Below are positions 23,350 through 64,000 of a stretch of DNA of 64,000 nucleotides, piece by piece (within the stretch, counting starts at the first letter, position 1; the number at the start of each line of letters is the position of its first letter). Location: the IMG/VR virus record IMGVR_UViG_3300021963_000038, positions 1-64,000 of that record; one strand, given 5' to 3'. The position numbers and the translations under genes are program-made. The notes under the pieces are model-generated. The model had not been told where the DNA came from, searched no databases, and saw only the letters and a list, made by a program, of their open reading frames with translations. The DNA is from a virus.

Positions 23350-23351
23350 AA

Positions 23352-24275: not shown

Positions 24276-24283
24276 AGAACAAA

Positions 24284-25192: not shown

Positions 25193-25225
25193 TAGGTAAA
25201 AAAAATAATATCACAATAAGAATAG

Positions 25226-25233
25226 CATAAATA
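25226..25233 (+). promoter_or_regulatory. Late promoter variant CATAAATA
   Basis: Intergenic, upstream of ORF 25270 with RBS GGAGG. Confidence 0.6.
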
Positions 25234-25269
25234 TAAGTATCATTTTATACTATTTTGGAGGTTAAAAAA

Positions 25270-25665
25270 ATGGCACATTTCGCAAAAATTAATAAAGCTA
25301 CAAACGAAGTTCTTCATGTATCCGTTGTTGATAACTGGAACTGCGTTGATGGCACAGGCAAAGAAGTAGAAGCAATAGGCATCACATACCTTGAAGGTGT
25401 TCATGGTGTGCATGATGATGTTTATTGGAAACAAACAAGTTACAACAATAACATTCGTAAAAATTATGCCGGTATTGGTATGACATACGATGCGGGTCGT
25501 GATGCTTTCATTGCACCTAAACCATATCCATCATGGGTATTAGTTGAAGAAACTTGCCAATGGAAAGCACCCGTTGATATGCCAGCTGATGCTGGCACAG
25601 GAAATCCACCTAAGATGTATCGTTGGGATGAAGCAACATTAAGTCATGTTGAAATGACAATTTAA
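25270..25665 (+). CDS. Conserved phage protein, putative fibre assembly factor
   Basis: ATG 25270 after GGAGG; MAHFAKI..WKQTSYN..RKNYAGIG..YD..RDAFIAPKPYPSW..CQWKAP family commonly found next to Gly-rich fibre genes. Confidence 0.7.
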   Translation: MAHFAKINKATNEVLHVSVVDNWNCVDGTGKEVEAIGITYLEGVHGVHDDVYWKQTSYNNNIRKNYAGIGMTYDAGRDAFIAPKPYPSWVLVEETCQWKAPVDMPADAGTGNPPKMYRWDEATLSHVEMTI

Positions 25666-25681
25666 TTATTAGGAGTATAAA

Positions 25682-26089
25682 ATGGATTTAAATAACGCAA
25701 GTGATGTGATGAAAAACTTTTCAGCTGAGAATGGAATGCCGGTAGGAATTGATACTGCAATTAAGGCTTTAAGACCTGGTTGCACTTTTGAAATTGCAAT
25801 GTCTGGTGGTGTTGTTACTTATCATAAGTGGTATCACCCTGATGGTTTATCAGCACCAACAAAAGCTGAGATTGATGAAGAAATTGTTTTCCAAGAAAAA
25901 TTGGCAAAACATTATCAGTATGCATACGATAGGTGCCGTCATTACCCTGATGGGTTTGAACAACTTGATATGTTGTGGCACGCTATCAATGAAGGTGTTG
26001 AATTGAAAAATTCAGAGTGGTTTAATACGATTAAAGAAGTTAAAGAAAAGTTTCCTAAATCTGAAGGCCCAGCACCAACAAAAGATTAA
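25682..26089 (+). CDS. Putative tail fibre assembly/XkdW-like protein
   Basis: ALRPG..PTKAEI.. and YP..EQLDMLWH..IKEVKEKFPK motifs; RBS AGGAG. Confidence 0.6.
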   Translation: MDLNNASDVMKNFSAENGMPVGIDTAIKALRPGCTFEIAMSGGVVTYHKWYHPDGLSAPTKAEIDEEIVFQEKLAKHYQYAYDRCRHYPDGFEQLDMLWHAINEGVELKNSEWFNTIKEVKEKFPKSEGPAPTKD

Positions 26090-26101
26090 TTAGAAAAATA
26101 G

Positions 26102-26109
26102 AATAAATA
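26102..26109 (+). promoter_or_regulatory. Late promoter variant AATAAATA
   Basis: 7 nt upstream of ATG 26117. Confidence 0.55.
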
Positions 26110-26116
26110 GACCACT

Positions 26117-26416
26117 ATGGCACTCAATAAAGTAAACGCAGATTCAATCGCAGACGGCACAGTTGTTGCTGCTGACATTGCAGACAATACAATTACCTTA
26201 GCAAAGTTGCAAAGTGGTCTGTTGCCTACTGCAATCGCAAATTCAGCAGCTGCATATGCTAACTCAGGATTTGCAGTTGCCAATTCATCAGCATCTTATG
26301 CTAACTCAGGTTTTGCAGTAGCTAACTCAGCGGCAAGTTATGCTAACTCAGGATTTTCAACCGCTAACACGGCAACAACTTCAATACCAAACATTTTCAT
26401 GTTATCAGGAATGTAA
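26117..26416 (+). CDS. Short fibre stalk protein, cassette 2
   Basis: IADGTV..IADNTIT.AKL repeats and three ANSAASYANSGFAV units; ends PNIFMLSGM. Confidence 0.75.
   Translation: MALNKVNADSIADGTVVAADIADNTITLAKLQSGLLPTAIANSAAAYANSGFAVANSSASYANSGFAVANSAASYANSGFSTANTATTSIPNIFMLSGM
26237..26368 (+). repeat. Coding tandem repeat, ~42-nt/14-aa unit (ANSAASYANSGFAV)
   Basis: Three units each containing TATGCTAACTCAGG. Confidence 0.85.
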
Positions 26417-26422
26417 AAACAT

Positions 26423-26761
26423 ATGGCACAAACATATAAACGATTAGGCGCAATCAACCCATCTGCAAATACGCAGACAAATGTGTATGTTGTGCCAGCA
26501 GCAACTTCAACAGTATTTTCATCAATTACAATTTGTAATCAAACAGCATCTAATGCTTCTTACAGTTTAGCTTTGATGAACAATTCAGAATTTAATGCTT
26601 CAGCACCAGCAGCAACATTTATTGTTCGTGGTGCAACTGTACCTGCCGCAGACACAATTGTTCTTACATTAGGTCTGACCGCTAATGCAGGTATGGTGCT
26701 TGCAGCAAATGCAAGTTCAGCATCAATTTCAATCGCAGCTTTTGGTTCAGAGATTACATAA
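26423..26761 (+). CDS. ~110-aa adaptor paralog A3
   Basis: YKRLGA..NVYVVPAATS..TICNQ..FGSEIT. Confidence 0.75.
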   Translation: MAQTYKRLGAINPSANTQTNVYVVPAATSTVFSSITICNQTASNASYSLALMNNSEFNASAPAATFIVRGATVPAADTIVLTLGLTANAGMVLAANASSASISIAAFGSEIT

Positions 26762-27741
26762 TGGCAGTTCGTTCAGCAAATTTATTAACTTTTACATCAG
26801 TCAATAAAAAAGGTGTTAGACCAGATGGTTATGCTTTTCCAGTTGGACTAACACAAACTGTTGCTGGCCAAGCTGCAGGACCAACTTCAGTAGATTATCT
26901 TGTAGTCGCTGGTGGTGGCGGTGGAGGTAGTCGATATGCTGGCGGCGGCGGTGCCGGTGGATTTTTAACTGGAACAGGATTTTCTATAACAACGGGAACA
27001 CCATACACCGTAACTGTTGGTGGTGGTGGACCAGGTAATGCTTATGTTAGTCCAGGTCAAGGTGGCGATGGAGGTAATTCAATATTTGGTCCATCTATAA
27101 CAGCCACTGGTGGCGGTGGTGGCGGCGGTGAAACTCCACCTTCAAGTGTGGGCACTGGTCGTGCTGGGGGTTCTGGTGGCGGTGCTAACTCGGGCGCAGG
27201 CGGATCAGGAACTCCAGGTCAAGGAAATAATGGCGGTTCAGCTTCATCTCCAGGTTTAGGATCTAATGCAACAGGCGGTGGTGGTGGCGGTGCCGGTGGA
27301 GCTGGTAGTTCTGGAGGAGCATATAGTTCTGGATATCCAGCAACGGGCACTGGCGGCCTTGGTACTGCATCACCTTATTCTGGTTCACCAGTAACATATG
27401 CTGGTGGCGGTGGTGCAGGAAATGGAACTGGTGGTGGTGTTTGTCTTGGTGGTCCAGGAACTCCAGGGGTAAGTGGTGGTAACGGATCCGGCGGTAGCGC
27501 AACTGGTGTTGCAGGAACTACTAACACGGGTGGTGGAGGTGGCGGTGGAAATTTTGATGGTAGTATAGGAAAAACTGGCGGTGCCGGCGGTTCTGGTATT
27601 GTAATCATTCGTTATACTGGTAGTCAAGGTGCTGCTGGTGGAAACTATTCATCATCTGGTGGTTATTCAATACATACATTCACTGGTAGTGGATCATTTA
27701 CATCCAATACATTCATAGCTGCCACTTATAACATCAATTAA
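26761..27741 (+). CDS. Glycine-rich putative fibre tip/adhesin G4
   Basis: RPDGYAFPVGL, VDYLVVAGGGGGG, GGSGIVIIRY, IHTFTG. Confidence 0.75.
   Translation: MAVRSANLLTFTSVNKKGVRPDGYAFPVGLTQTVAGQAAGPTSVDYLVVAGGGGGGSRYAGGGGAGGFLTGTGFSITTGTPYTVTVGGGGPGNAYVSPGQGGDGGNSIFGPSITATGGGGGGGETPPSSVGTGRAGGSGGGANSGAGGSGTPGQGNNGGSASSPGLGSNATGGGGGGAGGAGSSGGAYSSGYPATGTGGLGTASPYSGSPVTYAGGGGAGNGTGGGVCLGGPGTPGVSGGNGSGGSATGVAGTTNTGGGGGGGNFDGSIGKTGGAGGSGIVIIRYTGSQGAAGGNYSSSGGYSIHTFTGSGSFTSNTFIAATYNIN
26956..27035 (+). repeat. 80-bp exact dispersed repeat (copy 2 at 29223-29302)
   Basis: GGTGGATTTTTAACTGGAACAGG...GGTGGTGGACCAGG is identical in G4 and G5. Confidence 0.9.
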
Positions 27742-27746
27742 AACAG

Positions 27747-27754
27747 AATAAATA
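27747..27754 (+). promoter_or_regulatory. Late promoter variant AATAAATA
   Basis: 7 nt upstream of ATG 27762. Confidence 0.55.
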
Positions 27755-27761
27755 ATCAATT

Positions 27762-28697
27762 ATGTCATATATTGGAAATCAGGTAACATCAATACCGTTT
27801 ATCACAGATATCTTTTCTGGTACTGGCGCTCAAACGGCATTTACTCCACTAACAAGAGCTCCTGCTGGTACTGCATCAATTGCTGTTTTCATTGCTGGTG
27901 TATATCAACCGCCTTCTGCATACACATTAAATGGTGTTACTCTTACATTCAGTTCAGCACCAACAGCTGGCACAGGTAACATTGTTGTTCTACATCTAGG
28001 TAATGGTTCTGCTGTTCAAGTTCCATCGGACGGTTCAGTTACATTACTCAAACTATCTAACGATACTTACTCATATATCAATTCTGCATTTACTGCGGCT
28101 AATACTGGTGGCTCAGCAGCATCATATGCTAACTCAGGATTTGCGGTTGCTAACTCAGCGGCAAGTTATGCCAATGCAGCTTTTATCTCTGCAAATTTAA
28201 GTAATGGTATTGATACTACACAAAATACAAATATTACGAATGTTGGTACATATGCCAACTCAGCATTTGCTAAGGCAAACAATGCCACATCAAACGGTTC
28301 TTTTGCCGTAACAGGTTCAGGCTTAGCAGTTTCATTAACTGGTTCAGTAATAACTGGTTACAAAATTTTAGGTCAAATTGTAACAACGGCAAATTCAATT
28401 GCCAACGTATATGTTGTACCAGCTGCAACATCAGCTTCAATCGGTACAATCACAGTTTGTAATGGCACAGCAAACGATGTTCTATTAGATTTGATATCAA
28501 GACCATCTACTGAAGCTTTAGCTGCAAAACATTATATTGTTAAAGGCATCACACTGCCAGCTGCGGATACACTCATCATAGATAGTGGTGTATCATTAAA
28601 TACTGGTGCTATTTTAGCTGCCAACACAACTGGTGGCAATGCAGCCGCTTCTGCTGCAGGCATATCAGTTCACGCATATGGAGTTGAAATCGTATAA
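27762..28697 (+). CDS. Fibre stalk fused to an adaptor domain, cassette 3
   Basis: MSYIGNQ start, ANSAASYAN repeats, then GYKILGQ..VYVVPAATS..YGVEIV adaptor domain. Confidence 0.78.
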   Translation: MSYIGNQVTSIPFITDIFSGTGAQTAFTPLTRAPAGTASIAVFIAGVYQPPSAYTLNGVTLTFSSAPTAGTGNIVVLHLGNGSAVQVPSDGSVTLLKLSNDTYSYINSAFTAANTGGSAASYANSGFAVANSAASYANAAFISANLSNGIDTTQNTNITNVGTYANSAFAKANNATSNGSFAVTGSGLAVSLTGSVITGYKILGQIVTTANSIANVYVVPAATSASIGTITVCNGTANDVLLDLISRPSTEALAAKHYIVKGITLPAADTLIIDSGVSLNTGAILAANTTGGNAAASAAGISVHAYGVEIV

Positions 28698-29035
28698 TGG
28701 CAAACGCATATAAAATTTTAGGTCAATTAAATCCAACAGCTAATACACAAGGTAATGTGTATGTTGTGCCGGCAGCTTCAGCTGGAATTATTGAAACTAT
28801 TACAATCGCAAATCAATCAACAACTAATGCATCTTACAGTTTAATTGTGATGCCAGCTGCCAACTTTGCTTCACCAGCCGCAAACACATATTTCGTTGTT
28901 CGTGGTGGTTTAGCTCCTGCAAGTGATACTGCAATCATCGACCTTAACCTCAATTTGCCTGCTGGCACAGTCTTTGCTGCCAATGCAAGCACATCTTCTA
29001 TTTCCATATCGGCATTTGGCGTAGAAGTTTCTTAA
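28697..29035 (+). CDS. ~110-aa adaptor paralog A5
   Basis: YKILGQ..NVYVVPAA..IANQ..FGVEVS; closest to A2 (shared NASYSLIVMP.ANFASPA). Confidence 0.75.
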   Translation: MANAYKILGQLNPTANTQGNVYVVPAASAGIIETITIANQSTTNASYSLIVMPAANFASPAANTYFVVRGGLAPASDTAIIDLNLNLPAGTVFAANASTSSISISAFGVEVS

Positions 29036-29045
29036 AGGCATTAAA

Positions 29046-29957
29046 ATGGGCGTAAGATATTTTAATGCCAAACAAACAAATGGTAGACTACTCAGACCGC
29101 AGGGATATGCATTTCCTGTGGGATTAACTATACTTGTTGCGGCAGGTCCAACTTCAGTAGATTATCTTGTAGTCGCTGGAGGTGGTGGGGGAGGTAACGG
29201 TAATGGTGGTGGAGGCGGCGCTGGTGGATTTTTAACTGGAACAGGATTTTCTATAACAACGGGAACACCATACACCGTAACTGTTGGTGGTGGTGGACCA
29301 GGATCAGCGTCGACCTCCCAAAAAGCTTCGAATGGATCAAATTCTATATTTTCTAGTATAACTTCTGTTGGTGGCGGAGGTGGCGGATCAAATCAAAATA
29401 GAGCAGGATTAAATGGTGGTTCAGGCGGCGGCGCCGGTTCTGCTTCCGATAGTGTAAGTGCGAGTGGTGGTTCTGCTACTCCAAGTCAAGGAAATAATGG
29501 CGGTACAAACGGAACAGGTGCCGCTGCAGGTGGTGGTGGTGGAGCTGGCGGTTCTGGTGGAAACGCATCAGGAACCACTACTGGTAACGGTGGTTCAGGA
29601 ACAGCATCACCATATTCTGGTACACCAGTAACATATGCTGGTGGTGGTGGAGGTGGTGCTAGGAGTGATTTAAGTCAAACACCAGGTACAGGCGGTTCAG
29701 GTGTTGGAGGTGCCGGTGGTTATCCATCAGGAGGTAGTAATGGTTCACCAAATTCTGGTGGTGGAGCTGGAGGATCAGGTTTTGGTGCAAACTCTGGAGG
29801 AACTGGTGGTTCTGGTATTGTAATCATTCGATATGCAGGTGCTCAAACTGCAGCTGGTGGAAACTATTCTTATCCATCTCCTTTTGCATATTCTATACAT
29901 ACATTCACTGGTGATGGTACATTCACAAGTAATACTTTATTATACGCTGTCAACTAA
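29046..29957 (+). CDS. Glycine-rich putative fibre tip/adhesin G5
   Basis: RPQGYAFPVGL framework. Confidence 0.75.
   Translation: MGVRYFNAKQTNGRLLRPQGYAFPVGLTILVAAGPTSVDYLVVAGGGGGGNGNGGGGGAGGFLTGTGFSITTGTPYTVTVGGGGPGSASTSQKASNGSNSIFSSITSVGGGGGGSNQNRAGLNGGSGGGAGSASDSVSASGGSATPSQGNNGGTNGTGAAAGGGGGAGGSGGNASGTTTGNGGSGTASPYSGTPVTYAGGGGGGARSDLSQTPGTGGSGVGGAGGYPSGGSNGSPNSGGGAGGSGFGANSGGTGGSGIVIIRYAGAQTAAGGNYSYPSPFAYSIHTFTGDGTFTSNTLLYAVN
29827..29906 (+). repeat. 80-bp exact dispersed repeat (copy 2 at 30814-30893)
   Basis: TTCGATATGCAGGTGCTCAAACTGCAGC...TATACATACATTC is identical in G5 and G6. Confidence 0.9.
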
Positions 29958-29966
29958 AAAATAATT

Positions 29967-30941
29967 ATGGGTATAAAATATATCAACAAACCTGCGACTG
30001 GTTCTTATTTTTTAAGGCCGCAGGGATATTCATTCCCAACAGGATTAAATATAGCAGGAACACTATCTCTTGATTATCTTGTCGTTGGTGGTGGAGGTGG
30101 CGGTGGAAGTAGTGGAAGTGCAAATGGTGGTGGAGGTGGTGCAGGTGGTTTTAGAACAGGTTCAGGTTTTGTTGTGTTGGGTGGAACATCATATGCTGTT
30201 ACAGTAGGTGCCGGTGGTCCAGCAACATCAACTCCATCTTTTGTCAGAGGCAGTCAAGGGTCAAACACTACTTTCTCTACAATATCTTCTGCTGGTGGTG
30301 GCGGTGGTGGTTCATATGGTCCCACACTTGCAAATGGCCTTGATGGTGGTAGTGGGGGTGGTGCAGGCCAATCAAATGGAAATGCATACACAGGTGGTTC
30401 AGGTAATATTCCATCGACAAGTCCAAGTCAAGGAAATGCTGGTGGTAGTATGCCAGGTAATCCATCTCCTGGAAGAGGTGGTGCCGGCGGCGGTGGCGCA
30501 GGTGCTGGCGGTAATCCTCCAACTGGTTCTCCATTGCAACCTACTGGTGGTGCTGGTGGTGCTGGTAGTGCGTCACCTTTATCAGGTTCACCAGTAAATT
30601 ATGCTGGCGGTGGTTCTGGTGGCAGTCATAGTACAGGTGGAAGTGCCACTCCTGGAGGTCTTGGTGGTGGCGGCGCAGGAAGTTTTTCAAGTACAGTTGC
30701 TGGTGCTGGAACTCCTAACACCGGCGGTGGTGGCGGTGGTGCATCAGATGGAAATTCAGGGTCTTTCGTTGCATCATGGAATGGTGCAGGTGGTGGTTCT
30801 GGTATTGTAATTCTTCGATATGCAGGTGCTCAAACTGCAGCTGGTGGAAACTATTCTTATCCATCTCCTTTTGCATATTCTATACATACATTCCTTGGTG
30901 ATGGCACGTTTAGAGCAAACGGAACATATAGTGTTAATTAA
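29967..30941 (+). CDS. Glycine-rich putative fibre tip/adhesin G6
   Basis: RPQGYSFPTGL framework. Confidence 0.75.
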   Translation: MGIKYINKPATGSYFLRPQGYSFPTGLNIAGTLSLDYLVVGGGGGGGSSGSANGGGGGAGGFRTGSGFVVLGGTSYAVTVGAGGPATSTPSFVRGSQGSNTTFSTISSAGGGGGGSYGPTLANGLDGGSGGGAGQSNGNAYTGGSGNIPSTSPSQGNAGGSMPGNPSPGRGGAGGGGAGAGGNPPTGSPLQPTGGAGGAGSASPLSGSPVNYAGGGSGGSHSTGGSATPGGLGGGGAGSFSSTVAGAGTPNTGGGGGGASDGNSGSFVASWNGAGGGSGIVILRYAGAQTAAGGNYSYPSPFAYSIHTFLGDGTFRANGTYSVN

Positions 30942-30950
30942 GAGATAATT

Positions 30951-31904
30951 ATGGGCGCTTCATACACAGCAGGTAAAACAACAATAGGTGCGTTTCTTAG
31001 ACCGCAAGGATATGCATTTCCTGTGGGATTAACAACTGGTGTTCCTTTATCACTTTCAGTAGACTATCTTGTTGTAGCTGGTGGCGGAGGTGGAGGTAGA
31101 CAGCGTGGCGGTGGCGGCGGAGCAGGCGGTTTTAGAACAGGCACAGGATTTTCTATAACACAAGGAACGCCATACGCTGTAACTGTTGGTGGTGGTGGTC
31201 CAGGTTCAACAGTTACAACAGCGAGAGGCACAAACGGCAATGATTCCGTTTTTTCTACCATCACATCTACTGGTGGTGGCGGTGGCGGGTCATCAATTTC
31301 AACTGCATCTTCTGCTATTTTAAGTGGCGCAAGTGGCGGGTCTGGTGGGGGCAGTGCGGCTGATTCAGCGGCAGGAACAACATCCGGTTCTGGAGGCGCA
31401 GGAAATACTCCATCTACAAGCCCAAGCCAAGGTAGCAATGGAGGCGTTTGCAACCCCGCACCCGCCTATGGTGGAGGTGGAGGTGGCGGCGCAGGTGCTG
31501 TTGGAGGAAATGGCAGCGGCAGTCATCCAAGCTCGGTTGCTGGTACTGGTGGTAATGGTGTTGCATCACCATATTCTGGTTCACCAGTAACATATGCTGG
31601 TGGAGGCGGCGGCGGTCAACAAAACAATGGCCCATTTGCTGGAGGCACTGGAGGCGGAGGCGCTGGTACTGGTGGTGTAGGCGCTGGAGGAAATGCAACT
31701 CCAAATACAGGTGGTGGCGGTGGCGGTGATGGTAATGCTGGTGTTAATGGTGGTGCCGGCGGCTCAGGTATCGTAATCATTCGTTATACAGGTTCTCAAG
31801 CTGCTGGTGGTGGTAATTACTCCTCGTCTGGTGGATATTCTATACATACCTTTCTTGGTGATGGCACTTTTAGTGCTAATAACACAGGTTACTTTGTCAA
31901 CTAA
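30951..31904 (+). CDS. Glycine-rich putative fibre tip/adhesin G7
   Basis: RPQGYAFPVGL framework. Confidence 0.75.
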   Translation: MGASYTAGKTTIGAFLRPQGYAFPVGLTTGVPLSLSVDYLVVAGGGGGGRQRGGGGGAGGFRTGTGFSITQGTPYAVTVGGGGPGSTVTTARGTNGNDSVFSTITSTGGGGGGSSISTASSAILSGASGGSGGGSAADSAAGTTSGSGGAGNTPSTSPSQGSNGGVCNPAPAYGGGGGGGAGAVGGNGSGSHPSSVAGTGGNGVASPYSGSPVTYAGGGGGGQQNNGPFAGGTGGGGAGTGGVGAGGNATPNTGGGGGGDGNAGVNGGAGGSGIVIIRYTGSQAAGGGNYSSSGGYSIHTFLGDGTFSANNTGYFVN

Positions 31905-55477: not shown

Positions 55478-55486
55478 GGAAATATT

Positions 55487-56041
55487 ATGACAAAAAAACA
55501 TTATGTAAACAATGCTGACTTTCTTACAGCACTTATAGACTATCGTGCTAGATGCGATATTGCCAAGACGGAAGGTAAGGAAGACCCTAGAATACCAGAC
55601 TATATTGGTGAATGCTTTCTAAAGATTGCAGAACACCTATCAAGGAAGCCAAACTTCATCTCATATTCTTTCCGAGATGAAATGATTGCTGACGGCATAG
55701 AAAACTGTCTGATGTATTTCCGAAACTTTGACCCAGCAAAGTCAAAGAACCCATTCGCATACTTCACCCAAATTATTTACTTTGCCTTTCTCCGTAGGAT
55801 TATGAAAGAGAAAAAACAATTGTATGTTAAGTACAAGGCAACACAACAATTCGGTATTTTAGATGAAGGTGAAATGTATGAAGATACAGACGGCAATATG
55901 AAACAGTTTGAACTGTATGATAACATTGCTGAGTTTATTGAAACCTTTGAAGAAAACCGAGAAAAGAAAAAGAAGATTAAGGTAAAAGGACTAGAAAAGT
56001 TTATTGAACCATCTGATTTAGAAATACCCAAAGAACTATGA
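55487..56041 (+). CDS. gp55: Late transcription sigma factor gp55
   Basis: HYVNN..F; YIGECFLKIA..LS.KPNF..Y; EMI.DGIENC; NPFAYFTQI.YFAFLRRI.KEK. Confidence 0.96.
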   Translation: MTKKHYVNNADFLTALIDYRARCDIAKTEGKEDPRIPDYIGECFLKIAEHLSRKPNFISYSFRDEMIADGIENCLMYFRNFDPAKSKNPFAYFTQIIYFAFLRRIMKEKKQLYVKYKATQQFGILDEGEMYEDTDGNMKQFELYDNIAEFIETFEENREKKKKIKVKGLEKFIEPSDLEIPKEL

Positions 56042-59773: not shown

Positions 59774-60356
59774 AATTTTAACCATCAATACAGAAGCGGG
59801 TCTATTCAAAGAAGAAACGATTGAACCGTTGCCGTTATATAATGAACATCACCCGATGTTACAACAACCTATTCCAGAATATGACTTGAGAACTCTACCT
59901 AATCCTGTTATGACTAAATTAGTCAAACGATTAAAGATGACGATGAAGATGTATAGTGGTTTGGGACTATCAGCAAATCAATGTGGTGTATTCGAAAGAG
60001 TATTTGTGATTGGCAATGAAGATATGATTATTCCGTGTATTAATCCCAAAGTAATCAGAGTATCTGAAAAGACAGACAAAAACAACGAAGGGTGTTTATC
60101 GTTTCCTGGTTTGTTTTTGAAAATTGAAAGACCCATATCTGTTGATGTGGAATTTCATAATGAAAACGGCAAGTTGGTTAATACAACATTTGAAGGTCTT
60201 ACTGCAAGATGTTTTCTGCATGAATTAGACCACATGAATGGTATTCGTATGATTGAACACACAAAGCCATTAGCACTACAAATGGCAAGACAAAAACAAC
60301 AGAAGTTAATTAAAAAAGTGAAAAGAACTCAGAAAAATAATGGCATACTCATTTGA
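59766..60356 (+). CDS. def: Peptide deformylase
   Basis: All three PDF motifs: GLGLSANQ, EGCLS, HELDH. Confidence 0.93.
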   Translation: MSEILTINTEAGLFKEETIEPLPLYNEHHPMLQQPIPEYDLRTLPNPVMTKLVKRLKMTMKMYSGLGLSANQCGVFERVFVIGNEDMIIPCINPKVIRVSEKTDKNNEGCLSFPGLFLKIERPISVDVEFHNENGKLVNTTFEGLTARCFLHELDHMNGIRMIEHTKPLALQMARQKQQKLIKKVKRTQKNNGILI

Positions 60357-61677
60357 CCCAAAAGATGATGTAGAAGAACAATGGCGTAAATGGCAAGAAG
60401 CCAATCCGCCAGATTCTTTTATGGATATTAATGAAGATGAGTTGCGTGAGCAAACCATCAAAGACCTTACCTATGTGTCGGCTATGGATGTCCGTGAATA
60501 TACACTATATCAGAAATGGTGTGAAATCAAAGACAAGTATCCCACATTTGTGAACAATACATTATTCGGTGAAGAAGTACAATTGGTTGACCCAAAACAA
60601 CAAGTGTTGGTAGATGAAGTTAAGAATAACATTTGGTTGCCTGAAAGTCCTGATGACTATTTGAATCTTGAACCTGTATTGATTTACACCGATGATTCTG
60701 GTTCTGTATCACGCAAAGGTGTTGATGGTACAGTTGTTGAAGATAAAATTAAACGTAGTGATTTACCTGAAAGATGGAACACGGCACGAAACTTTATCTC
60801 GACAATGAAGAACAATAGTAACATTGGTCGCAATCTTAACTTTCTTGTTGCAGACAATAAGACAGGTAAGTATCTTGGTGTTATTTGTATATCATCAGAC
60901 TTTCTTGATTTAACACCAAGAGATAATGCGATTGGTTGGCCTCGTGAGTTAAAGACACAAGGTGGTATGATTAATCATACTGCAATTGGTTCTACAATTG
61001 TTCCGTTTCAACCACTTGGTTACAACTATGTTGGTGGTAAGTTACTTGCATTGCTTTGCCTATCAGATGAAGTGCAAAGATTGTGGAAGAAACAGTATGG
61101 TGATACCTTGATTGGTGTAACAACAACATCATTGTATGGTAAAACTAAAGCAGGTGGTCTATCACAATATGATAACCTTGACCATTGGAATCCTATGGGC
61201 TTCTCCTCTGGTTCTGTATCGTTTGAACCAAATAGAGATACACGTTATAAAATTCGTGAATGGTTGAAAGCAAATCATACCCGTAAATATTTCGAATGGT
61301 ATGTTGCAAAGAAAGCAAGTGGTCAACCACATAAACGTGACCATAAGAATCGTTCTTTAAATTTCACTTACTCTAAGATGAGTATACCAAAAGAATTGAT
61401 TAAGGCAGAACATCATCGTGGCATTTATTTCAGTCCACTATACAACAACTCGTTTGAGTTCTTGCGTGGTGATATCAAAGAAACAGAATTGGTTAAATCG
61501 TTTGATACCAGTTATGAATCTTTGACAAAGATATGGAAAGAAAAACACGCTAAAGGTCGTATCGGTTTTCTAAAGAAGAAAGACAAGGTATCAACCGAAA
61601 CTTTGTTCTATGATGATTTGATATATCTTACATGGGAAGAAACAAAGGCAAAGTATCTTGGCCAAGTCGGCAGATAA
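60340..61677 (+). CDS. DUF4338/DruA-like protein (putative GNAT/Mom-like transferase)
   Basis: GRNLNFLV.D..TGKYLGVI..RD..IGW..P..P.GYN..GGKLLA....S.EV...W...YG..L..VTTTSLYG..SQY..L; no other Druantia genes in the window. Confidence 0.7.
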   Translation: MAYSFDPKDDVEEQWRKWQEANPPDSFMDINEDELREQTIKDLTYVSAMDVREYTLYQKWCEIKDKYPTFVNNTLFGEEVQLVDPKQQVLVDEVKNNIWLPESPDDYLNLEPVLIYTDDSGSVSRKGVDGTVVEDKIKRSDLPERWNTARNFISTMKNNSNIGRNLNFLVADNKTGKYLGVICISSDFLDLTPRDNAIGWPRELKTQGGMINHTAIGSTIVPFQPLGYNYVGGKLLALLCLSDEVQRLWKKQYGDTLIGVTTTSLYGKTKAGGLSQYDNLDHWNPMGFSSGSVSFEPNRDTRYKIREWLKANHTRKYFEWYVAKKASGQPHKRDHKNRSLNFTYSKMSIPKELIKAEHHRGIYFSPLYNNSFEFLRGDIKETELVKSFDTSYESLTKIWKEKHAKGRIGFLKKKDKVSTETLFYDDLIYLTWEETKAKYLGQVGR

Positions 61678-61689
61678 TAAAAATAGTGC

Positions 61690-61718
61690 TTGCTTTTGTG
61701 AAAAAAGTCCTATATAAT
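61690..61718 (+). promoter_or_regulatory. Sigma70-type promoter driving the tRNA-like RNA
   Basis: TTGCTT (61690-95), 17 bp, TATAAT (61713-18); no plus-strand ORF in the track before the terminator at 61840. Confidence 0.85.
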
Positions 61719-61738
61719 TATAACATAGTAAAAAATAT

Positions 61739-61807
61739 GCGGTGGGTTGGATAACAAATTGAGGTACCCCCTTAATCAACTTTGTGAAACTCAAAGACAC
61801 CGCTCCA
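61739..61807 (+). tRNA. Non-canonical tRNA-Gly-like RNA, anticodon ACC, encoded CCA
   Basis: Acceptor GCGGTG/CACCGC + T discriminator + CCA; mini D-arm TTG-GATAA-CAA; anticodon arm TTGAG-GTACCCC-CTTAA; 4-nt variable loop; T-arm CTTTG-TGAAACT-CAAAG. Confidence 0.75.
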
Positions 61808-61839
61808 TCTTTCATTAAATCTCCAGTTCAATGAAACCT

Positions 61840-61875
61840 AAAACCCCTATTGCCCAAAGGTGATAGGGGTTTTTT
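61840..61875 (+). terminator. Rho-independent terminator after the tRNA-like RNA
   Basis: AAAACCCCTATTGCC-CAAA-GGTGATAGGGGTTTTTT. Confidence 0.88.
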
Positions 61876-61903
61876 CATTATTGCCACACAGAATTGGATT
61901 TTG

Positions 61904-61912
61904 TGTTATAAT
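61904..61912 (+). promoter_or_regulatory. Extended -10 promoter for ORF 61936
   Basis: TGtTATAAT; TTGCCA at 61881 is 20 bp away, so the -35 element is uncertain. Confidence 0.55.
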
Positions 61913-61935
61913 GACAACTTCAATAGGAGATTTTC

Positions 61936-62124
61936 ATGTGTAATGACAATGACTATTCGCATACCCTACTAGAACAGGAAGAAGAACATTTTTATTCCTG
62001 TGTTGCCGATGTTGTGGATGCCTTCAAAATTCATGGTACCGAAAACATCATGCGGGAAGTAAGTAAAAATACTTACATAAATCAAGAGCTTAGAGTGTTG
62101 TTTTCTGGCAACAAGACGGCTTGA
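61936..62124 (+). CDS. Small hypothetical early protein
   Basis: 62 aa with strong RBS AGGAG. Confidence 0.65.
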   Translation: MCNDNDYSHTLLEQEEEHFYSCVADVVDAFKIHGTENIMREVSKNTYINQELRVLFSGNKTA

Positions 62125-62149
62125 CATTTCAGACTACCTGTGTTACAAT
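62121..62149 (+). promoter_or_regulatory. Sigma70-type early promoter
   Basis: TTGACA (62121-26), 17 bp, TGtTACAAT (62144-49). Confidence 0.85.
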
Positions 62150-62178
62150 GGTCGTATTAAAAGTTAAATAGGTAAACT

Positions 62179-64000
62179 ATGCAAGATTATAGTGTCGAAT
62201 CAAAATCACAATTAGCGAAGTTGCTCGCTACTGAAAACCTGACTATTCAACACCAAAAAATCAGAACCGCAAAATTCGATACAGCGAATCGTGTTCTGTA
62301 TTGTCCAATTTGGGATAATATGACTGGTGATTTGTATGACCTTTTGTTAGGTCACGAAGTTGGTCATGCTTTATATACACCTAAAGATGGATGGCATGAT
62401 GCTGTTTGTGATAAAGGTGAAAATTACAAACGATTCCTTAATGTGATTGAAGATGCTCGCATTGAGAAAAAAGTCAAACGCAAATATCCAGGTATTCGTA
62501 AATCATTTATTAATGGTTATGCTAACCTTTTAGAACGTGATTTTTTCGGCATCAAAAATAAAAATGTAAATGATTTGGCATTTATCGACCGCTTGAACCT
62601 TTATACAAAAGGCGGTACAATGTTGGGTATTGCCTTTGATGAAAAAGAAAAAACATTGCTTGCTAAAGTTGAAGCAGTTGAAACATGGACTGATGTTTTA
62701 AATGTTTGTTCTGAAATTTTTGATTACTCAAAAGATGAACAATCGAAAAAACAAATCTTTTCACCATATGATGATTTTGAAGATTACGAAGATAATTATG
62801 GTGATGATGAAGAAATTGATGATGATTATGATGTTGAAGATTCTGATGAAGAATCAGATGATGAAAAACAAAATGTAAATTCGTCTGATGGTGATGCTGA
62901 AGAAACCGATGAAGAATTGGATGAAAAACAAAATGTCTTAAATCGTGAAAAGAATTCTAAAGCATTGGGTGAAGAAAGTGAAAAATTCGAACCCGATTGT
63001 GTTACTGATGAAGCATTTAGGCAGAATGAAGATAAATTACTTTCAGAAAAATGCCGTGATTTCCGTTACATGAATGTGCCTAAGTTGGTGAATCCCAAAT
63101 CTGTGTATACAGGTTACAAACGTGTTCACGAATTAATGGAAAAACATTTCAAAGAATACAATCCAGTAACTTATACGGATGGTACAGTTGATAAATTGGT
63201 GAAAGAATTCAAATCTCAAAATGAAAGATACATTTCATTATTGGCAAAAGAATTCGAAATGAAGAAGGCTGCAAAATCTTACTCTAAGGCCAAAATCTCC
63301 GATACTGGTGATATTGATATCAATAAACTTTACAAGTATCAAGTTGAAGATAATATCTTCCGTAAAATGACGGTTCTACCAAAAGGTAAATCTCACGGTT
63401 TGGTTTTGTTACTTGATAAATCTGGTTCGATGCGTGATAACATGAGTGGTTCTATCGAACAGATTTTGGTTCTAACCGCATTTTGCCGTAAAGTAAATAT
63501 TCCTTTTACTGTTTACGCTTTTAGTGATTATGACCATGCTCGCCGTATGGATGTAAGTGATGATGTTTTTGATAAAGAAAAAAATGTTGCGGCTTTCAGT
63601 AGAAATTCTGGTGAGATGGAACTAGGAGATGTTTATTTGCGTGAGTATTTGAATTCTACAATGAAAACTTCCGAGTATAATCGTTGTGTTAAGAATATGA
63701 TTTTGCTTGCCAATGCATACAATGTTTCATATAATACTCGCACACATTTTTCAATTCCACCATCAGAAGGTCTTGGTATGACTCCTCTGATTCAATCAAT
63801 CTTTGCAATTCAACCTGCAATCAGTAAATTCAAAGTGAAAAATAATCTTGACATTGTGAATTTAATTGTTGTGCATGATGGTGATGCCGATAGTTGTGGT
63901 TATCATTTGTATTATGATACTCAAAAAGAAAAAATGTCATGGAGTGGTTGGTCCCATGAGCGTGAAAATGTTTTCATTGCTGATAACAGTATTAAGTTTC
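62179..64000 (+). CDS. Partial CobT-like protein (HExxH metallopeptidase-like domain, acidic linker, vWA domain)
   Basis: Not in ORF track because it runs off the end. MQDYSVESKSQLAKLLATENL..LLGHEVGHALYTP..NVIEDARIE; D/E-rich linker; HGLVLLLDKSGSM MIDAS motif; VVHDGD. Confidence 0.85.
   Translation, partial: MQDYSVESKSQLAKLLATENLTIQHQKIRTAKFDTANRVLYCPIWDNMTGDLYDLLLGHEVGHALYTPKDGWHDAVCDKGENYKRFLNVIEDARIEKKVKRKYPGIRKSFINGYANLLERDFFGIKNKNVNDLAFIDRLNLYTKGGTMLGIAFDEKEKTLLAKVEAVETWTDVLNVCSEIFDYSKDEQSKKQIFSPYDDFEDYEDNYGDDEEIDDDYDVEDSDEESDDEKQNVNSSDGDAEETDEELDEKQNVLNREKNSKALGEESEKFEPDCVTDEAFRQNEDKLLSEKCRDFRYMNVPKLVNPKSVYTGYKRVHELMEKHFKEYNPVTYTDGTVDKLVKEFKSQNERYISLLAKEFEMKKAAKSYSKAKISDTGDIDINKLYKYQVEDNIFRKMTVLPKGKSHGLVLLLDKSGSMRDNMSGSIEQILVLTAFCRKVNIPFTVYAFSDYDHARRMDVSDDVFDKEKNVAAFSRNSGEMELGDVYLREYLNSTMKTSEYNRCVKNMILLANAYNVSYNTRTHFSIPPSEGLGMTPLIQSIFAIQPAISKFKVKNNLDIVNLIVVHDGDADSCGYHLYYDTQKEKMSWSGWSHERENVFIADNSIKF

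What the first reader, a model, noticed from the sequence alone, without database searches (positions are those of the whole stretch)
61739..61807. Shrunken tRNA-Gly(ACC) with hallmarks of a non-proteinogenic tRNA
Seen: bacterial GlyRS identity elements are kept (G1-C72, C2-G71, G3-C70, U73, C35/C36, CCA, U33). Translation-related features are broken: T-loop GUGAAACU instead of GUUCRA; 3-bp D-arm with a short loop and no U8; G7.A66 mismatch; pyrimidine at 37; possible G32-C38 pair; A-U-rich T-stem (U50-A64, U51-A63), which should weaken EF-Tu binding. Established: staphylococcal wall-synthesis tRNA-Gly species show similar T-loop, position-37 and EF-Tu-evading changes, and tRNA-Gly(ACC) is essentially absent from bacteria. 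Alternative inferences: it decodes the GGT codons that dominate the seven Gly-rich fibre genes, or it is a decoy for host anticodon nucleases or tRNA-sensing defences. Standard tRNA scanners may miss it.
Basis: partly seen in the sequence, partly recalled or inferred. Interest (0 to 1): 0.82.

Follow-up and report, generated by a model that had tools for sequence, protein, structure and literature searches.

The report
Shrunken phage glycine-tRNA look-alike
This 69-base gene belongs to a large, unannotated family of miniature glycine-tRNA look-alikes in freshwater T4-like phages that keep the marks needed for loading with glycine but not those of a normal codon reader, so it probably carries glycine for something other than protein synthesis.

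Summary
Window 61739-61807(+) folds as a cloverleaf that ARAGORN and Rfam miss. It is a conserved RNA. A model built from relatives finds it at 45-76 bits in 105 further phage loci. On 89 distinct sequences, 84.8% of cells pair against 65.1% when shuffled, and 17 of 22 pairs change on both sides.

The invariant bases are G1-C72 to G4-C69, U73, CCA, CC in the anticodon-like loop and the T-loop core. That is the bacterial GlyRS identity set. The loop is only 4-5 nt, U33 is often lost, position 37 is often C, and the wobble base drifts A/U/C without any shift in codon usage.

A caution for the "private donor of the DruA-type GNAT" reading. When loci are fetched through the RNA rather than the gene, only 33 of 119 have that gene directly upstream. 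38 of 119 sit beside a canonical tRNA-Gly. The neighbouring protein has a GNAT fold. Phage Mu Mom is its top structural match, but statistically tied with ordinary acetyltransferases and without sequence homology.

Charging and function are untested. The scan has noted this family before, in at least 28 other genomes.

The parts
61690..61718 (+). Putative sigma70-type promoter: TTGCTT (61690-61695), 17-nt spacer, TATAAT (61713-61718). This would give a leader of about 14 nt before G61739.
   Evidence: Read from the sequence. The consensus scan did not list it, because the -35 hexamer matches only 3 of 6 positions. Relatives have TTGACA/TATAAT-type boxes at the same place, seen by eye.
61739..61807 (+). 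69-nt shrunken tRNA-Gly-like RNA (whole element)
   Evidence: Cloverleaf as minimum-energy fold. Model R1 scores it 71.1 bits, the only match in the 135.9-kb record at E<=1. Covariation across the family.
61739..61745 (+). Acceptor stem 5' strand, GCGGUGG. It pairs with 61797-61803 (ACACCGC). The first four pairs are invariant; G7.A66 is a mismatch here.
   Evidence: GC/CG/GC/GC in 89 of 89 distinct sequences. Pairs 5 and 6 covary. Pair 7 is unpaired in 53 of 89.
61746..61755 (+). Miniature D arm: 3-bp stem (61746-61748 with 61753-61755) and 4-nt loop GGAU. It has no U8 and no G18G19.
   Evidence: All 3 pairs change on both sides and 97% of cells are paired. The third pair occurs as AU, UA, GC and CG.
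61758..61776 (+). Anticodon-like arm: 7-bp stem (61758-61764 with 61770-61776) and 5-nt loop UACCC (61765-61769). Read as an anticodon it is ACC, flanked by U33 and C37, with a G32-C38 closing pair.
   Evidence: The CC is invariant or nearly so. In the first 34 distinct sequences the closing pairs are UA 20, GC 6, AU 6 and CG 2.
61780..61796 (+). T arm: 5-bp stem CUUUG/CAAAG and 7-nt loop UGAAACU. The closing G-C pair and the fifth loop base (A) are invariant in the first 34 sequences.
   Evidence: 4 of 5 pairs change on both sides.
61804..61807 (+). Discriminator U73 and encoded CCA
   Evidence: Invariant in the 34 aligned sequences.
61840..61873 (+). Intrinsic terminator closing the small transcription unit
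   Evidence: 15 pairs, 6 of them G-C, followed by a T run.
60340..61677 (+). Upstream 445-aa gene of the DruA/DUF4338 family with a GNAT-fold core. It is context and a candidate partner; it is not shown to be part of the element.
   Evidence: Pfam PF14236, E 1.3e-19. AlphaFold2 model, mean pLDDT 93.1. GNAT fold over residues about 105-390.

Best explanation
The element is a phage gene for a miniature paralogue of tRNA-Gly.

Expression (inferred). It is transcribed from its own promoter, or in some relatives together with the gene or tRNA in front of it. It is then trimmed like a tRNA to a 63-69-nt molecule ending in UCCA.

Shape (shown by covariation). It keeps a normal acceptor/T minihelix. 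The other limb is rebuilt: a 3-bp D stem plus an 8-9-bp anticodon-like stem that presents two cytosines at its tip.

Conservation (shown). The only invariant bases are G1-C72, C2-G71, G3-C70, G4-C69, U73, CCA, the two Cs and the T-loop core.

Inference from that pattern. These bases are what bacterial GlyRS reads. The marks of a codon reader (7-nt loop, U33, purine 37, D/T-loop elbow) are not kept. So the most likely working is that host GlyRS loads it with glycine, it is a poor partner for EF-Tu and the ribosome, and it holds activated glycine outside the translation pool for a non-ribosomal glycyl transfer.

Candidate user (speculative). The only one I can name is the phage's GNAT-fold DruA-family protein, encoded directly upstream here. 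It could act as Mu Mom does with Gly-tRNAGly.
For: Real, conserved structure:
- 68 of 80 loci fetched through the upstream gene carry the element, as 34 distinct sequences. Nearly every one folds as a cloverleaf by itself.
- Model R1 finds it at 44.6-75.8 bits and nowhere else in those loci.
- On 89 distinct sequences, 84.8% of cells pair against 65.1% shuffled (0 of 500 shuffles reach it). The covariation score is 0.454 against 0.133. 17 of 22 pairs change on both sides. Slid controls give 35-54% pairing (the first set is).

Glycine identity:
- The invariant columns are G1, C2, G3, G4, C31, G46, A51, C54, C62-C65, U66 and CCA, with C30 nearly invariant.
- The published determinants are G1C72, C2G71, C35, C36 and U73, plus purine-4/pyrimidine-69. 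D, T and V loop sequences had no significant effect on charging (PMC10464925, passages read).

Not a decoder:
- Among 187 loci the loop types are UACCC 57, UUCCC 32, CCCA 31, GUCCA 19 and CACCC 17, plus 15 minor types. The loop is 4-5 nt, position 33 is U, G, C or absent, and position 37 is C or A.
- Closing pairs are always Watson-Crick and covary.
- Gly codon usage is the same whichever 'anticodon' is present.
- A complete relative (G001) has canonical tRNA-Gly(UCC) and (GCC) as well.
- 38 of 119 loci have a canonical tRNA-Gly within 30 nt.

Precedents:
- Staphylococcal NP tRNA-Gly have altered D/T loops, a UGC T-loop triplet and weak EF-Tu and ribosome binding, and donate glycine to Fem transferases (PMC7826273, passages read).
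- Mu Mom transfers glycine from Gly-tRNAGly to DNA adenine and reads the tRNA-Gly 3' end (PMC13219725, abstract and sections read).

Candidate partner:
- The upstream protein has a GNAT fold. Mom (8bv8_B) ranks first: Z 9.5, rmsd 3.9, 168 residues aligned.
- In one subclade the RNA starts 2-8 nt after that gene's stop codon with no promoter in between.
- All 7 RNA-bearing records examined also encode the gene: G000 and G001 adjacent, G004-G008 elsewhere.
- No Pfam Mom or FemAB family member is present in 5 of them.
Against: - No RNA, charging, EF-Tu or ribosome data exist.
- The link to the DruA-type gene is weaker than a gene-first sample suggests. In 119 loci fetched by an RNA pattern, 33 have the gene directly upstream, 16 have it elsewhere in the locus, 66 show none in the locus, and 4 have under 300 nt upstream.
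- Other neighbours are an HExxH protein, GroES, rubrerythrin, Hsp20 and tRNA arrays.
- The gene also occurs without the RNA nearby: in L083-L088 (L083-L087 whole contigs), in Pelagibacter phages Mosig and HTVC008M, and in many cyanophages (their RNA content was not tested).
- Mom's top structural rank is tied with SpeG and other acetyltransferases at Z 9.0-9.2.
- Foldseek gives nothing at E<=0.001.
- Profile-profile comparison with the Mom family gives probability 0.1%.
- The conserved QPFG..N..GGKL stretch could, in my unaided reading, still be a CoA-binding motif.
- Each loop type differs from a canonical 7-nt loop by only one lesion (C37, or G33, or one missing base).
- Some phages carry two mini copies with different 'anticodons'.
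- GGT-rich, glycine-rich fibre genes create real demand for tRNA-Gly. Residual decoding is therefore not excluded.
Confidence: 0.4

Rival explanations
1. Decoy or sponge. The RNA mimics the acceptor end of tRNA-Gly, charged or not. It would soak up host defence toxins or other factors that read that stem, sparing the decoding tRNA-Gly pool.
For: - tRNA-Gly is a favoured target of acceptor-stem-reading toxins. The toxSAS FaRel2 uses G1-C72, C2-G71, G4-C69 and Pu5-Py68. The GNAT toxins AtaT2 and TacT take Gly-tRNAGly. Phages are known to answer tRNA-targeting defences with their own tRNAs (PMC11559606, passages read).
- G1-C72 to G4-C69 plus UCCA are invariant in the family.
- The RNA has its own strong promoter and is often the first gene of a tRNA array.
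- A non-decoding body would make high expression harmless.
Against: - A decoy for acceptor-stem readers does not need the two conserved Cs at the far tip, nor a preserved limb length. Both point to GlyRS. They would fit only a decoy that must be charged.
- Pair 5-68 is U-A in 71 of 89 sequences, not Pu5-Py68.
- No such toxin is known for the unidentified host.
- Stoichiometric decoys are costly.
Confidence: 0.2
2. It is still a decoding tRNA-Gly. On this reading it is an unusually compact isoacceptor that supplies glycine for the GGT-rich, glycine-rich fibre genes, or that replaces a host tRNA-Gly disabled during infection.
For: - GGT is 67% of Gly codons, and seven ORFs at 22414-31901 are 32-35% glycine.
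- No canonical tRNA-Gly is seen in the held part of this genome. The tRNA cluster is cut by the record end.
- If the closing pair opens, the loop is 7 nt with U33, ACC and one lesion (C37).
- Some phages have two mini copies with different anticodon-like triplets.
- The marine relatives' 74-nt version has a canonical UUACCAA loop.
Against: - U33 is G, C or missing in 67 of the 187 loci (GUCCA 19, CACCC 17, CCCA 31). Position 37 is C in most of the rest.
- Closing pairs are Watson-Crick and covary.
- There is no G18G19 or T-psi-C elbow.
- Loci with CCC use GGG for only 2.1% of Gly codons.
- Canonical tRNA-Gly genes sit beside it or in the same genome.
- Staphylococcal tRNA-Gly with milder D/T changes do not bind programmed ribosomes (PMC7826273, passages read).
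Confidence: 0.17
3. An uncharged structural or processing RNA. It would be a tRNA-shaped RNase P/3'-end processing signal, a stabiliser that punctuates early transcripts, or a regulator that binds a tRNA-binding protein.
For: - In one subclade it directly abuts the upstream stop codon.
- It often heads tRNA arrays.
- T4 is recalled to encode stable RNAs of unknown function in its tRNA region. This is recall, not checked here.
Against: - A mere processing signal would not need an invariant U73, CCA and two Cs in the distal loop, nor a limb of preserved length.
- The element has its own promoter and terminator here.
Confidence: 0.1
4. A decaying tRNA-Gly pseudogene or a chance cloverleaf.
For: The single-sequence fold is only modestly better than shuffles (z -1.81). 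It often lies next to a canonical tRNA-Gly, as a duplicate would.
Against: - There are 89 distinct sequences with compensatory changes in 17 of 22 pairs and invariant functional positions.
- There is one copy per genome at 52-63 bits in five large relatives.
- The pattern hits at least 120 viral stretches, against 9 stretches (all R1 <=23 bits, none called by ARAGORN) in one genome each of 185,579 prokaryote species.
Confidence: 0.02

Closest known systems
Non-proteogenic tRNA-Gly isoacceptors NP1-NP3 of Staphylococcus aureus / S. epidermidis (PMC7826273, passages read)
   Same: - An extra tRNA-Gly paralogue encoded beside normal ones.
- GlyRS identity is kept.
[quoted passage not shown] Many relatives of this element also have UGC.
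- The proposed role is to keep a glycine pool away from EF-Tu and the ribosome.
   Different: - The staphylococcal tRNAs are full-size, with normal arms and a UCC anticodon.
- They belong to a lineage reported only in staphylococci and serve FmhB/FemA/FemB.
- This RNA is 63-69 nt, with a 3-bp D stem, an 8-9-bp anticodon-like stem and a 4-5-nt loop.
- It is found in phages only, and no FemAB family gene is present in 5 genomes that carry it.
Phage Mu Mom with Gly-tRNAGly (Pfam PF25680; PDB 8bv8; PMC13219725, abstract and sections 10, 13, 14 read in part)
   Same: - A phage GNAT-fold enzyme that takes glycine from charged tRNA-Gly and reads the tRNA's 3' end.
- Mom is the top structural match of the neighbouring protein (Z 9.5).
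   Different: - Mom uses host tRNA-Gly, all three isoacceptors, and no private RNA is described. The paper has no mention of 'tRNA-like', 'DruA' or 'DUF4338'.
- The neighbouring protein is not a Pfam Mom member.
- Profile comparison gives probability 0.1%.
- The structural score is tied with ordinary acetyltransferases.
Canonical phage-encoded tRNA-Gly(UCC/GCC) in the same phage group
   Same: - The same first four acceptor pairs, U73 and encoded CCA.
- Same strand and same arrays, often 3-8 nt apart. This suggests origin by duplication.
   Different: - Canonical copies are 73-77 nt, are called by ARAGORN, and have normal D and T loops and a 7-nt UUUCCAA-type loop.
- They score only 24-42 bits with the family model, against 45-76 for the mini form.
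74-nt tRNA-Gly(ACC)-like genes of Pelagibacter phages HTVC008M and Mosig
   Same: - The closest cultured relatives, with the upstream protein at 55-60% identity.
- GCGG/CCGC-UCCA ends, ACC at the tip, and non-canonical D and T loops (AGCGUUA, GGCAGUA).
   Different: - They are full length with a canonical UUACCAA loop. ARAGORN calls HTVC008M's but not Mosig's.
- They lie 4-6 kb from the DruA-type gene. In HTVC008M the position is between cobS and the S21 gene.
- They score only 23-25 bits with the family model.
Aminoacylatable tRNA-like structures of plant RNA viruses, the tmRNA tRNA-like domain and bacterial YrlA Y RNAs (recalled; only search listings seen)
   Same: tRNA mimicry used outside ordinary decoding.
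   Different: - Those are domains of larger RNAs with different architectures and identities (Val, His, Tyr, Ala, or none).
- This is a free-standing, cloverleaf, CCA-ending molecule of Gly identity in dsDNA phages.

Membership tests
Canonical elongator tRNA (Rfam RF00005; decoding tRNA-Gly) | Recognised by tRNA covariance or heuristic models | tested here: not met
   ARAGORN finds 0 genes in the window and of 119 related elements. RF00005 gives no match at E<=10.
Canonical elongator tRNA (Rfam RF00005; decoding tRNA-Gly) | Cloverleaf with 7-bp acceptor, 5-bp T stem and 7-nt T loop, discriminator and CCA | tested here: met
   Covariation, sequence. The seventh acceptor pair is often unpaired (53 of 89).
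Canonical elongator tRNA (Rfam RF00005; decoding tRNA-Gly) | 7-nt anticodon loop with U33 and purine 37 | tested here: not met
   The window has a 5-nt loop UACCC closed by G-C, with C at position 37. Across the family the loops are 4-5 nt, position 33 is U, G, C or absent, and position 37 is C or A.
Canonical elongator tRNA (Rfam RF00005; decoding tRNA-Gly) | D loop with G18G19 pairing to T-loop psi55-C56 (the elbow) | tested here: not met
   The D arm is a 3-bp stem with a 3-5-nt loop. T loops are UGAAACU, UGCGAAU, AGCAAAG, UUUAACU and others.
Substrate of bacterial alpha2beta2 GlyRS (tRNA-Gly identity) | G1-C72, C2-G71, C35, C36, U73, and purine-4/pyrimidine-69 (PMC10464925) | tested here: met
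   All are present and invariant, or nearly so, in the alignments. This is a match at sequence level only.
Substrate of bacterial alpha2beta2 GlyRS (tRNA-Gly identity) | Actual glycylation, and an L-shape accepted by the enzyme | not testable with these tools
   This needs a charging assay. [quoted passage not shown]
Staphylococcal non-proteogenic tRNA-Gly (NP1-3) | Membership of the staphylococcal NP lineage and use by Fem transferases | tested here: not met
   The element occurs in phage contigs only. The genome contigs pattern scan gave 9 chance-level hits. Pfam FemAB is found in 0 of 5 RNA-bearing genomes. It may work like an NP tRNA, but it is not a member.
Staphylococcal non-proteogenic tRNA-Gly (NP1-3) | Weak EF-Tu.GTP and ribosome binding | not testable with these tools
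   The T stem here is C-G, U-A, U-A, U-A, G-C. No validated energy model was available to me.
Mom-type Gly-tRNA-dependent DNA modification system | A Mom-family (PF25680) enzyme | tested here: not met
   Pfam at E<=10 finds only DruA. PF25680 is found in 0 of 5 genomes. hhalign against 111 Mom-family sequences gives probability 0.1%.
Mom-type Gly-tRNA-dependent DNA modification system | GNAT fold closest to Mom | tested here: inconclusive
   Mom 8bv8_B ranks first: Z 9.5, rmsd 3.9, 168 residues aligned. SpeG and others follow at Z 9.0-9.2, which counts as tied. Foldseek E-values are all >=0.05.
Mom-type Gly-tRNA-dependent DNA modification system | Glycyl transfer from tRNA to DNA adenine (6-NcmdA in virion DNA) | not testable with these tools
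   This needs an enzyme assay or nucleoside LC-MS.
Druantia type I (DruA as a defence component) | DruA family domain | tested here: met
   PF14236, E 1.3e-19, 70.9 bits against a cut-off of 27.
Druantia type I (DruA as a defence component) | Partner genes druB-druE nearby | not tested
   I ran no defence-system scan. The neighbours seen are a peptide deformylase, a methyltransferase, a 62-aa ORF and a large unassigned ORF.

The most novel reading that the evidence does not exclude
Aquatic T4-like phages encode a private, non-decoding glycyl carrier. Host GlyRS would charge this miniature tRNA. A phage GNAT of the DruA family, rather than the ribosome, would consume it to glycylate DNA or another target. 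That would make it the first virus-encoded 'non-proteinogenic tRNA'. It would also imply that DruA of the Druantia defence system is an aminoacyl-tRNA-dependent transferase.
Probability: 0.25. Interest if true: 0.9.

Novelty: new variant of a known kind. Interest (0 to 1): 0.72.

Why it matters
If the RNA is charged but not used for decoding, it would show that viruses, like staphylococci, split the glycyl-tRNA pool with a dedicated carrier. It would also point to an unknown glycine-consuming reaction in very abundant freshwater phages.

It is a concrete, testable lead for the unknown chemistry of the DruA/DUF4338 family, which includes a component of the Druantia defence system.

On the practical side, hundreds of these genes are invisible to ARAGORN and to the Rfam tRNA model. 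Phage tRNA censuses therefore miss them.

The family also offers a natural experiment on the minimum a bacterial GlyRS needs: a 63-nt cloverleaf with a 3-bp D stem.

Tried and rejected
RNA evidence:
- One freshwater metatranscriptome held a tenth of the sampled words.
- When 4 runs (Logan contigs) were laid on 60300-62700, nothing covered 61677-62162. This says nothing either way.

Wider context through distant DruA homologues:
- The search for related loci with P0007 and P0033 found nothing in viral contigs.

Sequence link between the DruA-type protein and Mom:
- Protein comparison failed internally.
- hhalign gave probability 1.1% against Mu Mom alone and 0.1% against a 111-sequence Mom alignment.
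- An HMM of alignment A3 against PDB sequences gave only two irrelevant hits, at E 0.3 and 0.86.
- Pfam at E<=10 gave only DruA.
- PHROGs places the two proteins in different families.

Known RNA families: none matched. The best was rliE at E 0.019 and 26.6 bits against a gathering score of 90, driven by the terminator.

Cultured phages:
- blastn of the 69-mer and of a 67-nt relative against 50,697 GenBank phage records gave no match at E<=0.01. Sensitivity is low for such short queries.
- blastn of 61300-62300 matched only part of the DruA-type gene in the Pelagibacter phages.

Prokaryote genomes: the pattern scan gave 9 stretches, all <=23 bits with R1 and none called by ARAGORN. I read these as chance.

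Contigs L083-L087 (7-29 kb) gave no R1 match. They are 4-16% complete, so this shows little.

Pfam Mom and FemAB were absent from 5 RNA-bearing records.

A reading I dropped: that the RNA is tightly and generally linked to the DruA-type gene. That impression came from fetching loci through the gene (68 of 80). It did not survive the RNA-first sample (33 of 119).

Literature:
- Searches found no description of this RNA.
- No paper held both 'DruA' and 'GNAT'.
- Supplements were not opened and may hold tRNA tables, for example for the pelagimyophage genomes of PMC7029224.
Full report
WHAT IS THERE

Window 61739-61807(+) reads GCGGUGG-GUUGGAUAAC-AA-AUUGAGG-UACCC-CCUUAAU-CAA-CUUUG-UGAAACU-CAAAG-ACACCGC-U-CCA. 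RNAfold returns the cloverleaf as its minimum-energy structure at -18.5 kcal/mol. The fold alone is weak evidence: z = -1.81, and 12 of 200 shuffles fold as well.

- A perfect TATAAT at 61713-61718 lies 17 nt after TTGCTT.
- A 15-pair terminator lies at 61840-61873.
- The unit is therefore self-contained. It sits between the stop codon of a 445-aa gene (60340-61677) and a 62-aa ORF with its own promoter.

Every tRNA finder misses it:
- ARAGORN finds 0 genes in the window.
- Rfam finds 0 matches at gathering score, and no tRNA match at E<=10 on 61600-61950.
- RF00005 over the whole 135.9-kb virus record finds 14 canonical tRNAs at 133.1-135.9 kb, but not this element. ARAGORN types them as Leu x2, Glu, Lys, Tyr, Asp, Asn, Val, Ser, Ile, Trp, Pro, Ala and Arg.
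- None of the 14 is tRNA-Gly. The record ends right after the last of them, so the cluster may be cut.

IT IS A CONSERVED, COVARYING RNA

The upstream protein has 362 relatives in IMG/VR, and 80 loci were kept (73-100% identity).
- 68 loci carry a GCGG...CCGCUCCA element of 63-69 nt at the same place, as 34 distinct sequences.
- 6 loci end too early to judge. L014 and L054 hold its 5' part.
- 6 loci (L083-L088) lack it.
- Inner sequence is highly diverged, yet nearly every copy folds into the same cloverleaf on its own.

RNAalifold on a plain MAFFT alignment already finds compensatory changes in 11 of 16 predicted pairs.

A covariance model (R1) finds the element at 44.6-75.8 bits. It finds nothing else in 562 kb, not even the phage's own canonical tRNAs, at E<=1.

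On a broader set of 109 matches (89 distinct sequences), one search gives:
- 84.8% of cells form standard pairs, against 65.1% in shuffles (0 of 500 shuffles reach it).
- The covariation score is 0.454 against 0.133 (0 of 500).
- 17 of 22 pairs change on both sides.
- Sliding the partners gives 35-54% pairing.
- The 3-bp D stem is 97% paired, and its third pair occurs as AU, UA, GC and CG.

This alignment was fitted to the model, which favours the structure. The unfitted results point the same way.

WHAT IS CONSERVED AND WHAT IS NOT

Invariant columns in the 34-sequence alignment are G1, C2, G3, G4, C31, G46, A51, C54, C62-C65, U66 and CCA. C30 is nearly invariant. In tRNA terms these are:
- the first four acceptor pairs,
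- U73 and CCA,
- two cytosines in the distal loop,
- the pair that closes the T loop, and the T loop's fifth base.

The published determinants for bacterial alpha2beta2 GlyRS are G1C72, C2G71, C35, C36 and U73, with a purine-4/pyrimidine-69 preference. The sequences of the D, T and V loops matter little (PMC10464925, passages read).

By contrast, the marks of a codon reader are not kept:
- The distal stem pairs right up to a 4-5-nt loop.
- Over 187 loci the loop is UACCC 57, UUCCC 32, CCCA 31, GUCCA 19 or CACCC 17, plus 15 minor types totalling 31.
- Position 33 is U, G, C or missing. Position 37 is C or A. The wobble position is A, U or C.
- The closing pair is always Watson-Crick and covaries: UA 20, GC 6, AU 6, CG 2 in the first 34 sequences.
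- There is no G18G19, and no T-psi-C.

The D stem has shrunk to 3 bp while the distal stem has grown to 8-9 bp. The length of that limb, and so the distance from the CC to the CCA end, is roughly preserved. This last point is my inference from the stem lengths.

WHERE THE FAMILY LIVES

The same pattern over one genome for each of 185,579 prokaryote species gave 9 stretches. All score <=23 bits with R1 and none is called by ARAGORN, so I read them as chance.

Among the 119 new loci:
- 33 have the DruA-type gene directly upstream, with a gap of 22-64 nt.
- 16 have it elsewhere in the locus.
- 66 show none in the locus.
- 4 have under 300 nt upstream.

Other recurrent neighbours are a 197-aa HExxH protein, a GroES-like gene, rubrerythrin, Hsp20 and a carbamoyltransferase-like gene.

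The commonest RNA neighbour is a canonical tRNA-Gly:
- 38 of 119 loci have one within 30 nt on the same strand: 36 UCC and 2 GCC, 24 downstream and 14 upstream.
- 3 loci have tRNA-Met there instead.
- ARAGORN of the 119 mini elements.

Several phages have two mini copies 3 nt apart with different loops: UCCCC + GUCCA, or UACCC + GUCCA.

In five large relatives where the RNA is not next to the DruA-type gene:
- all five still encode the gene (67-74% identity), 10-17 kb away, plus a second paralogue at 36-41%;
- each has exactly one high-scoring mini RNA (52-63 bits), plus two or three 74-78-nt matches at 24-40 bits, as canonical tRNA-Gly scored in G001; these were not typed.

The complete relative G001 has the mini RNA next to the gene and also canonical tRNA-Gly(UCC) and (GCC).

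The closest cultured phages are Pelagibacter phages Mosig and HTVC008M, with 60% and 55% protein identity.
- Neither has a mini RNA beside the gene.
- Both carry a 74-nt tRNA-Gly(ACC)-like gene 4-6 kb downstream. It has a canonical UUACCAA loop but odd D and T loops.
- In HTVC008M it lies between cobS and the S21 gene, and the record's feature table has no RNA feature there.

AGAINST SIMPLE CODON SUPPLY

GGT is 67% of Gly codons in 45 ORFs of 150 aa or more, and seven ORFs at 22414-31901 are 32-35% glycine.

But Gly codon usage in the flanking ORFs is the same whichever triplet the mini RNA carries. GGT is 60-67% and GGG 2-3% throughout. The 37 loci with CCC use GGG for only 2.1% of Gly codons. 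That ORF set is crude and the loci are not independent.

THE NEIGHBOURING PROTEIN

- It is a DruA/DUF4338 family member: PF14236, E 1.3e-19.
- It has 879 relatives at E<=0.001 among the representative proteins.
- In the ESM Atlas, its nearest clusters are 98-100% viral.
- An AlphaFold2 model built on 71 sequences has mean pLDDT 93.1.
- Residues about 105-390 form a GNAT fold.
- VIA-align over 48,161 chains ranks Mu Mom (8bv8_B) first: Z 9.5, rmsd 3.9, 168 residues aligned. Generic GNATs score Z 8.0-8.8 and FemA 7.9.
- In the second look, SpeG acetyltransferases reach Z 9.0-9.2.
- Foldseek gives only E 0.05-0.16.
- No sequence method links the family to Mom.

So 'GNAT fold' is established and 'Mom-like' is not.

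The idea remains attractive. Mom transfers glycine from Gly-tRNAGly to N6 of adenine in dsDNA, accepts all three tRNA-Gly isoacceptors, and rejects Gly-tRNAAla (PMC13219725; abstract, section 10 and passages read). In one subclade the mini RNA also begins 2-8 nt after the DruA-type stop codon, with no promoter between. No Pfam Mom or FemAB member is present in five RNA-bearing genomes.

READING

Shown:
- a widespread, virus-restricted, structurally conserved tRNA-Gly paralogue;
- constrained positions that coincide with GlyRS identity elements;
- variable positions that include everything specific to decoding.

Inferred:
- It is processed like a tRNA, charged with glycine, and kept out of translation. 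This follows the analogy with staphylococcal NP tRNA-Gly, which have altered D/T regions, a UGC T-loop triplet, weak EF-Tu binding and no binding to programmed ribosomes (PMC7826273, passages read).

Speculative:
- The consumer is the DruA-type GNAT.

The main rival is a decoy for toxins that read the tRNA-Gly acceptor stem. FaRel2 uses G1-C72, C2-G71, G4-C69 and Pu5-Py68, and AtaT2/TacT take Gly-tRNAGly (PMC11559606, passages read). Residual decoding is not excluded. Each loop type is one lesion away from a canonical loop, and the phage has heavy glycine demand.

NOVELTY AND EARLIER NOTES

- Rfam 15 has no such family.
- Six literature searches found no description of it. Supplements were closed.
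- This scan has met the family before: 35 notes in at least 28 genomes, most concluding 'private glycine donor for a DruA/Mom-type enzyme'.
- My results agree on the RNA. They temper the linkage claim, because much of the apparent linkage is an artefact of fetching loci through the gene.

Noticed in passing
L093 1501-1574 (HTVC008M 91140-91213, +); L092 1501-1574 (Mosig 7779-7852, -): Both cultured Pelagibacter myophages carry a 74-nt tRNA-Gly(ACC)-like gene. It has a canonical UUACCAA loop but non-canonical D and T loops. ARAGORN calls HTVC008M's and misses Mosig's. In HTVC008M it lies between cobS and the S21 gene, and the record's feature table lists no RNA feature there.
   Followed up: partly
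L125 4377-4516; also L120, L136, L142, L166, L163: Some relatives have two mini tRNA-Gly-like genes in tandem, 3 nt apart, with different distal loops: UCCCC + GUCCA, or UACCC + GUCCA. L163 has a second copy with a different acceptor start.
   Followed up: partly
window 22414-31901 (+): Seven consecutive ORFs of 302-326 aa are 32-35% glycine, which suggests collagen-like fibre genes. GGT is 60% of their Gly codons.
   Followed up: partly
L090 4197-4331 and L091 3617-3752: The intergenic stretch before the large 'peptidase' gene in Mosig and HTVC008M shares a motif, seen by eye: agaaca.. ..ctgtgcga..tgacgca.cagc. It may be another small conserved RNA or a regulatory site.
   Followed up: no
G004-G008 (for example G004 55485-55898): Each large relative encodes a second, more distant DruA-family paralogue (36-41% identity, 368-383-aa frames) besides the main one.
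   Followed up: no
window 61936-62124 (+): A 62-aa ORF lies just downstream with its own TGnTATAAT-type promoter. Its N-terminal motif, DYSHTLLEQEE, recurs in many related loci (by eye). It has no Pfam match.
   Followed up: no
L131 and L144 (upstream of the RNA or tRNA array): In 3 loci the nearest upstream ORF is a 457-aa protein that I guessed, from its sequence alone, to be Ro60/TROVE-vWA-like. I did not test this. Bacterial Ro60 partners with tRNA-like Y RNAs (recalled).
   Followed up: no
Hit H29 (Synechococcus phage S-SCSM2R, 134003-134341): One GenBank record annotates its partial homologue of the DruA-type protein as 'methylcarbamoylase mom'. So at least one annotation pipeline links these families, though my profile comparison did not.
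   Followed up: no
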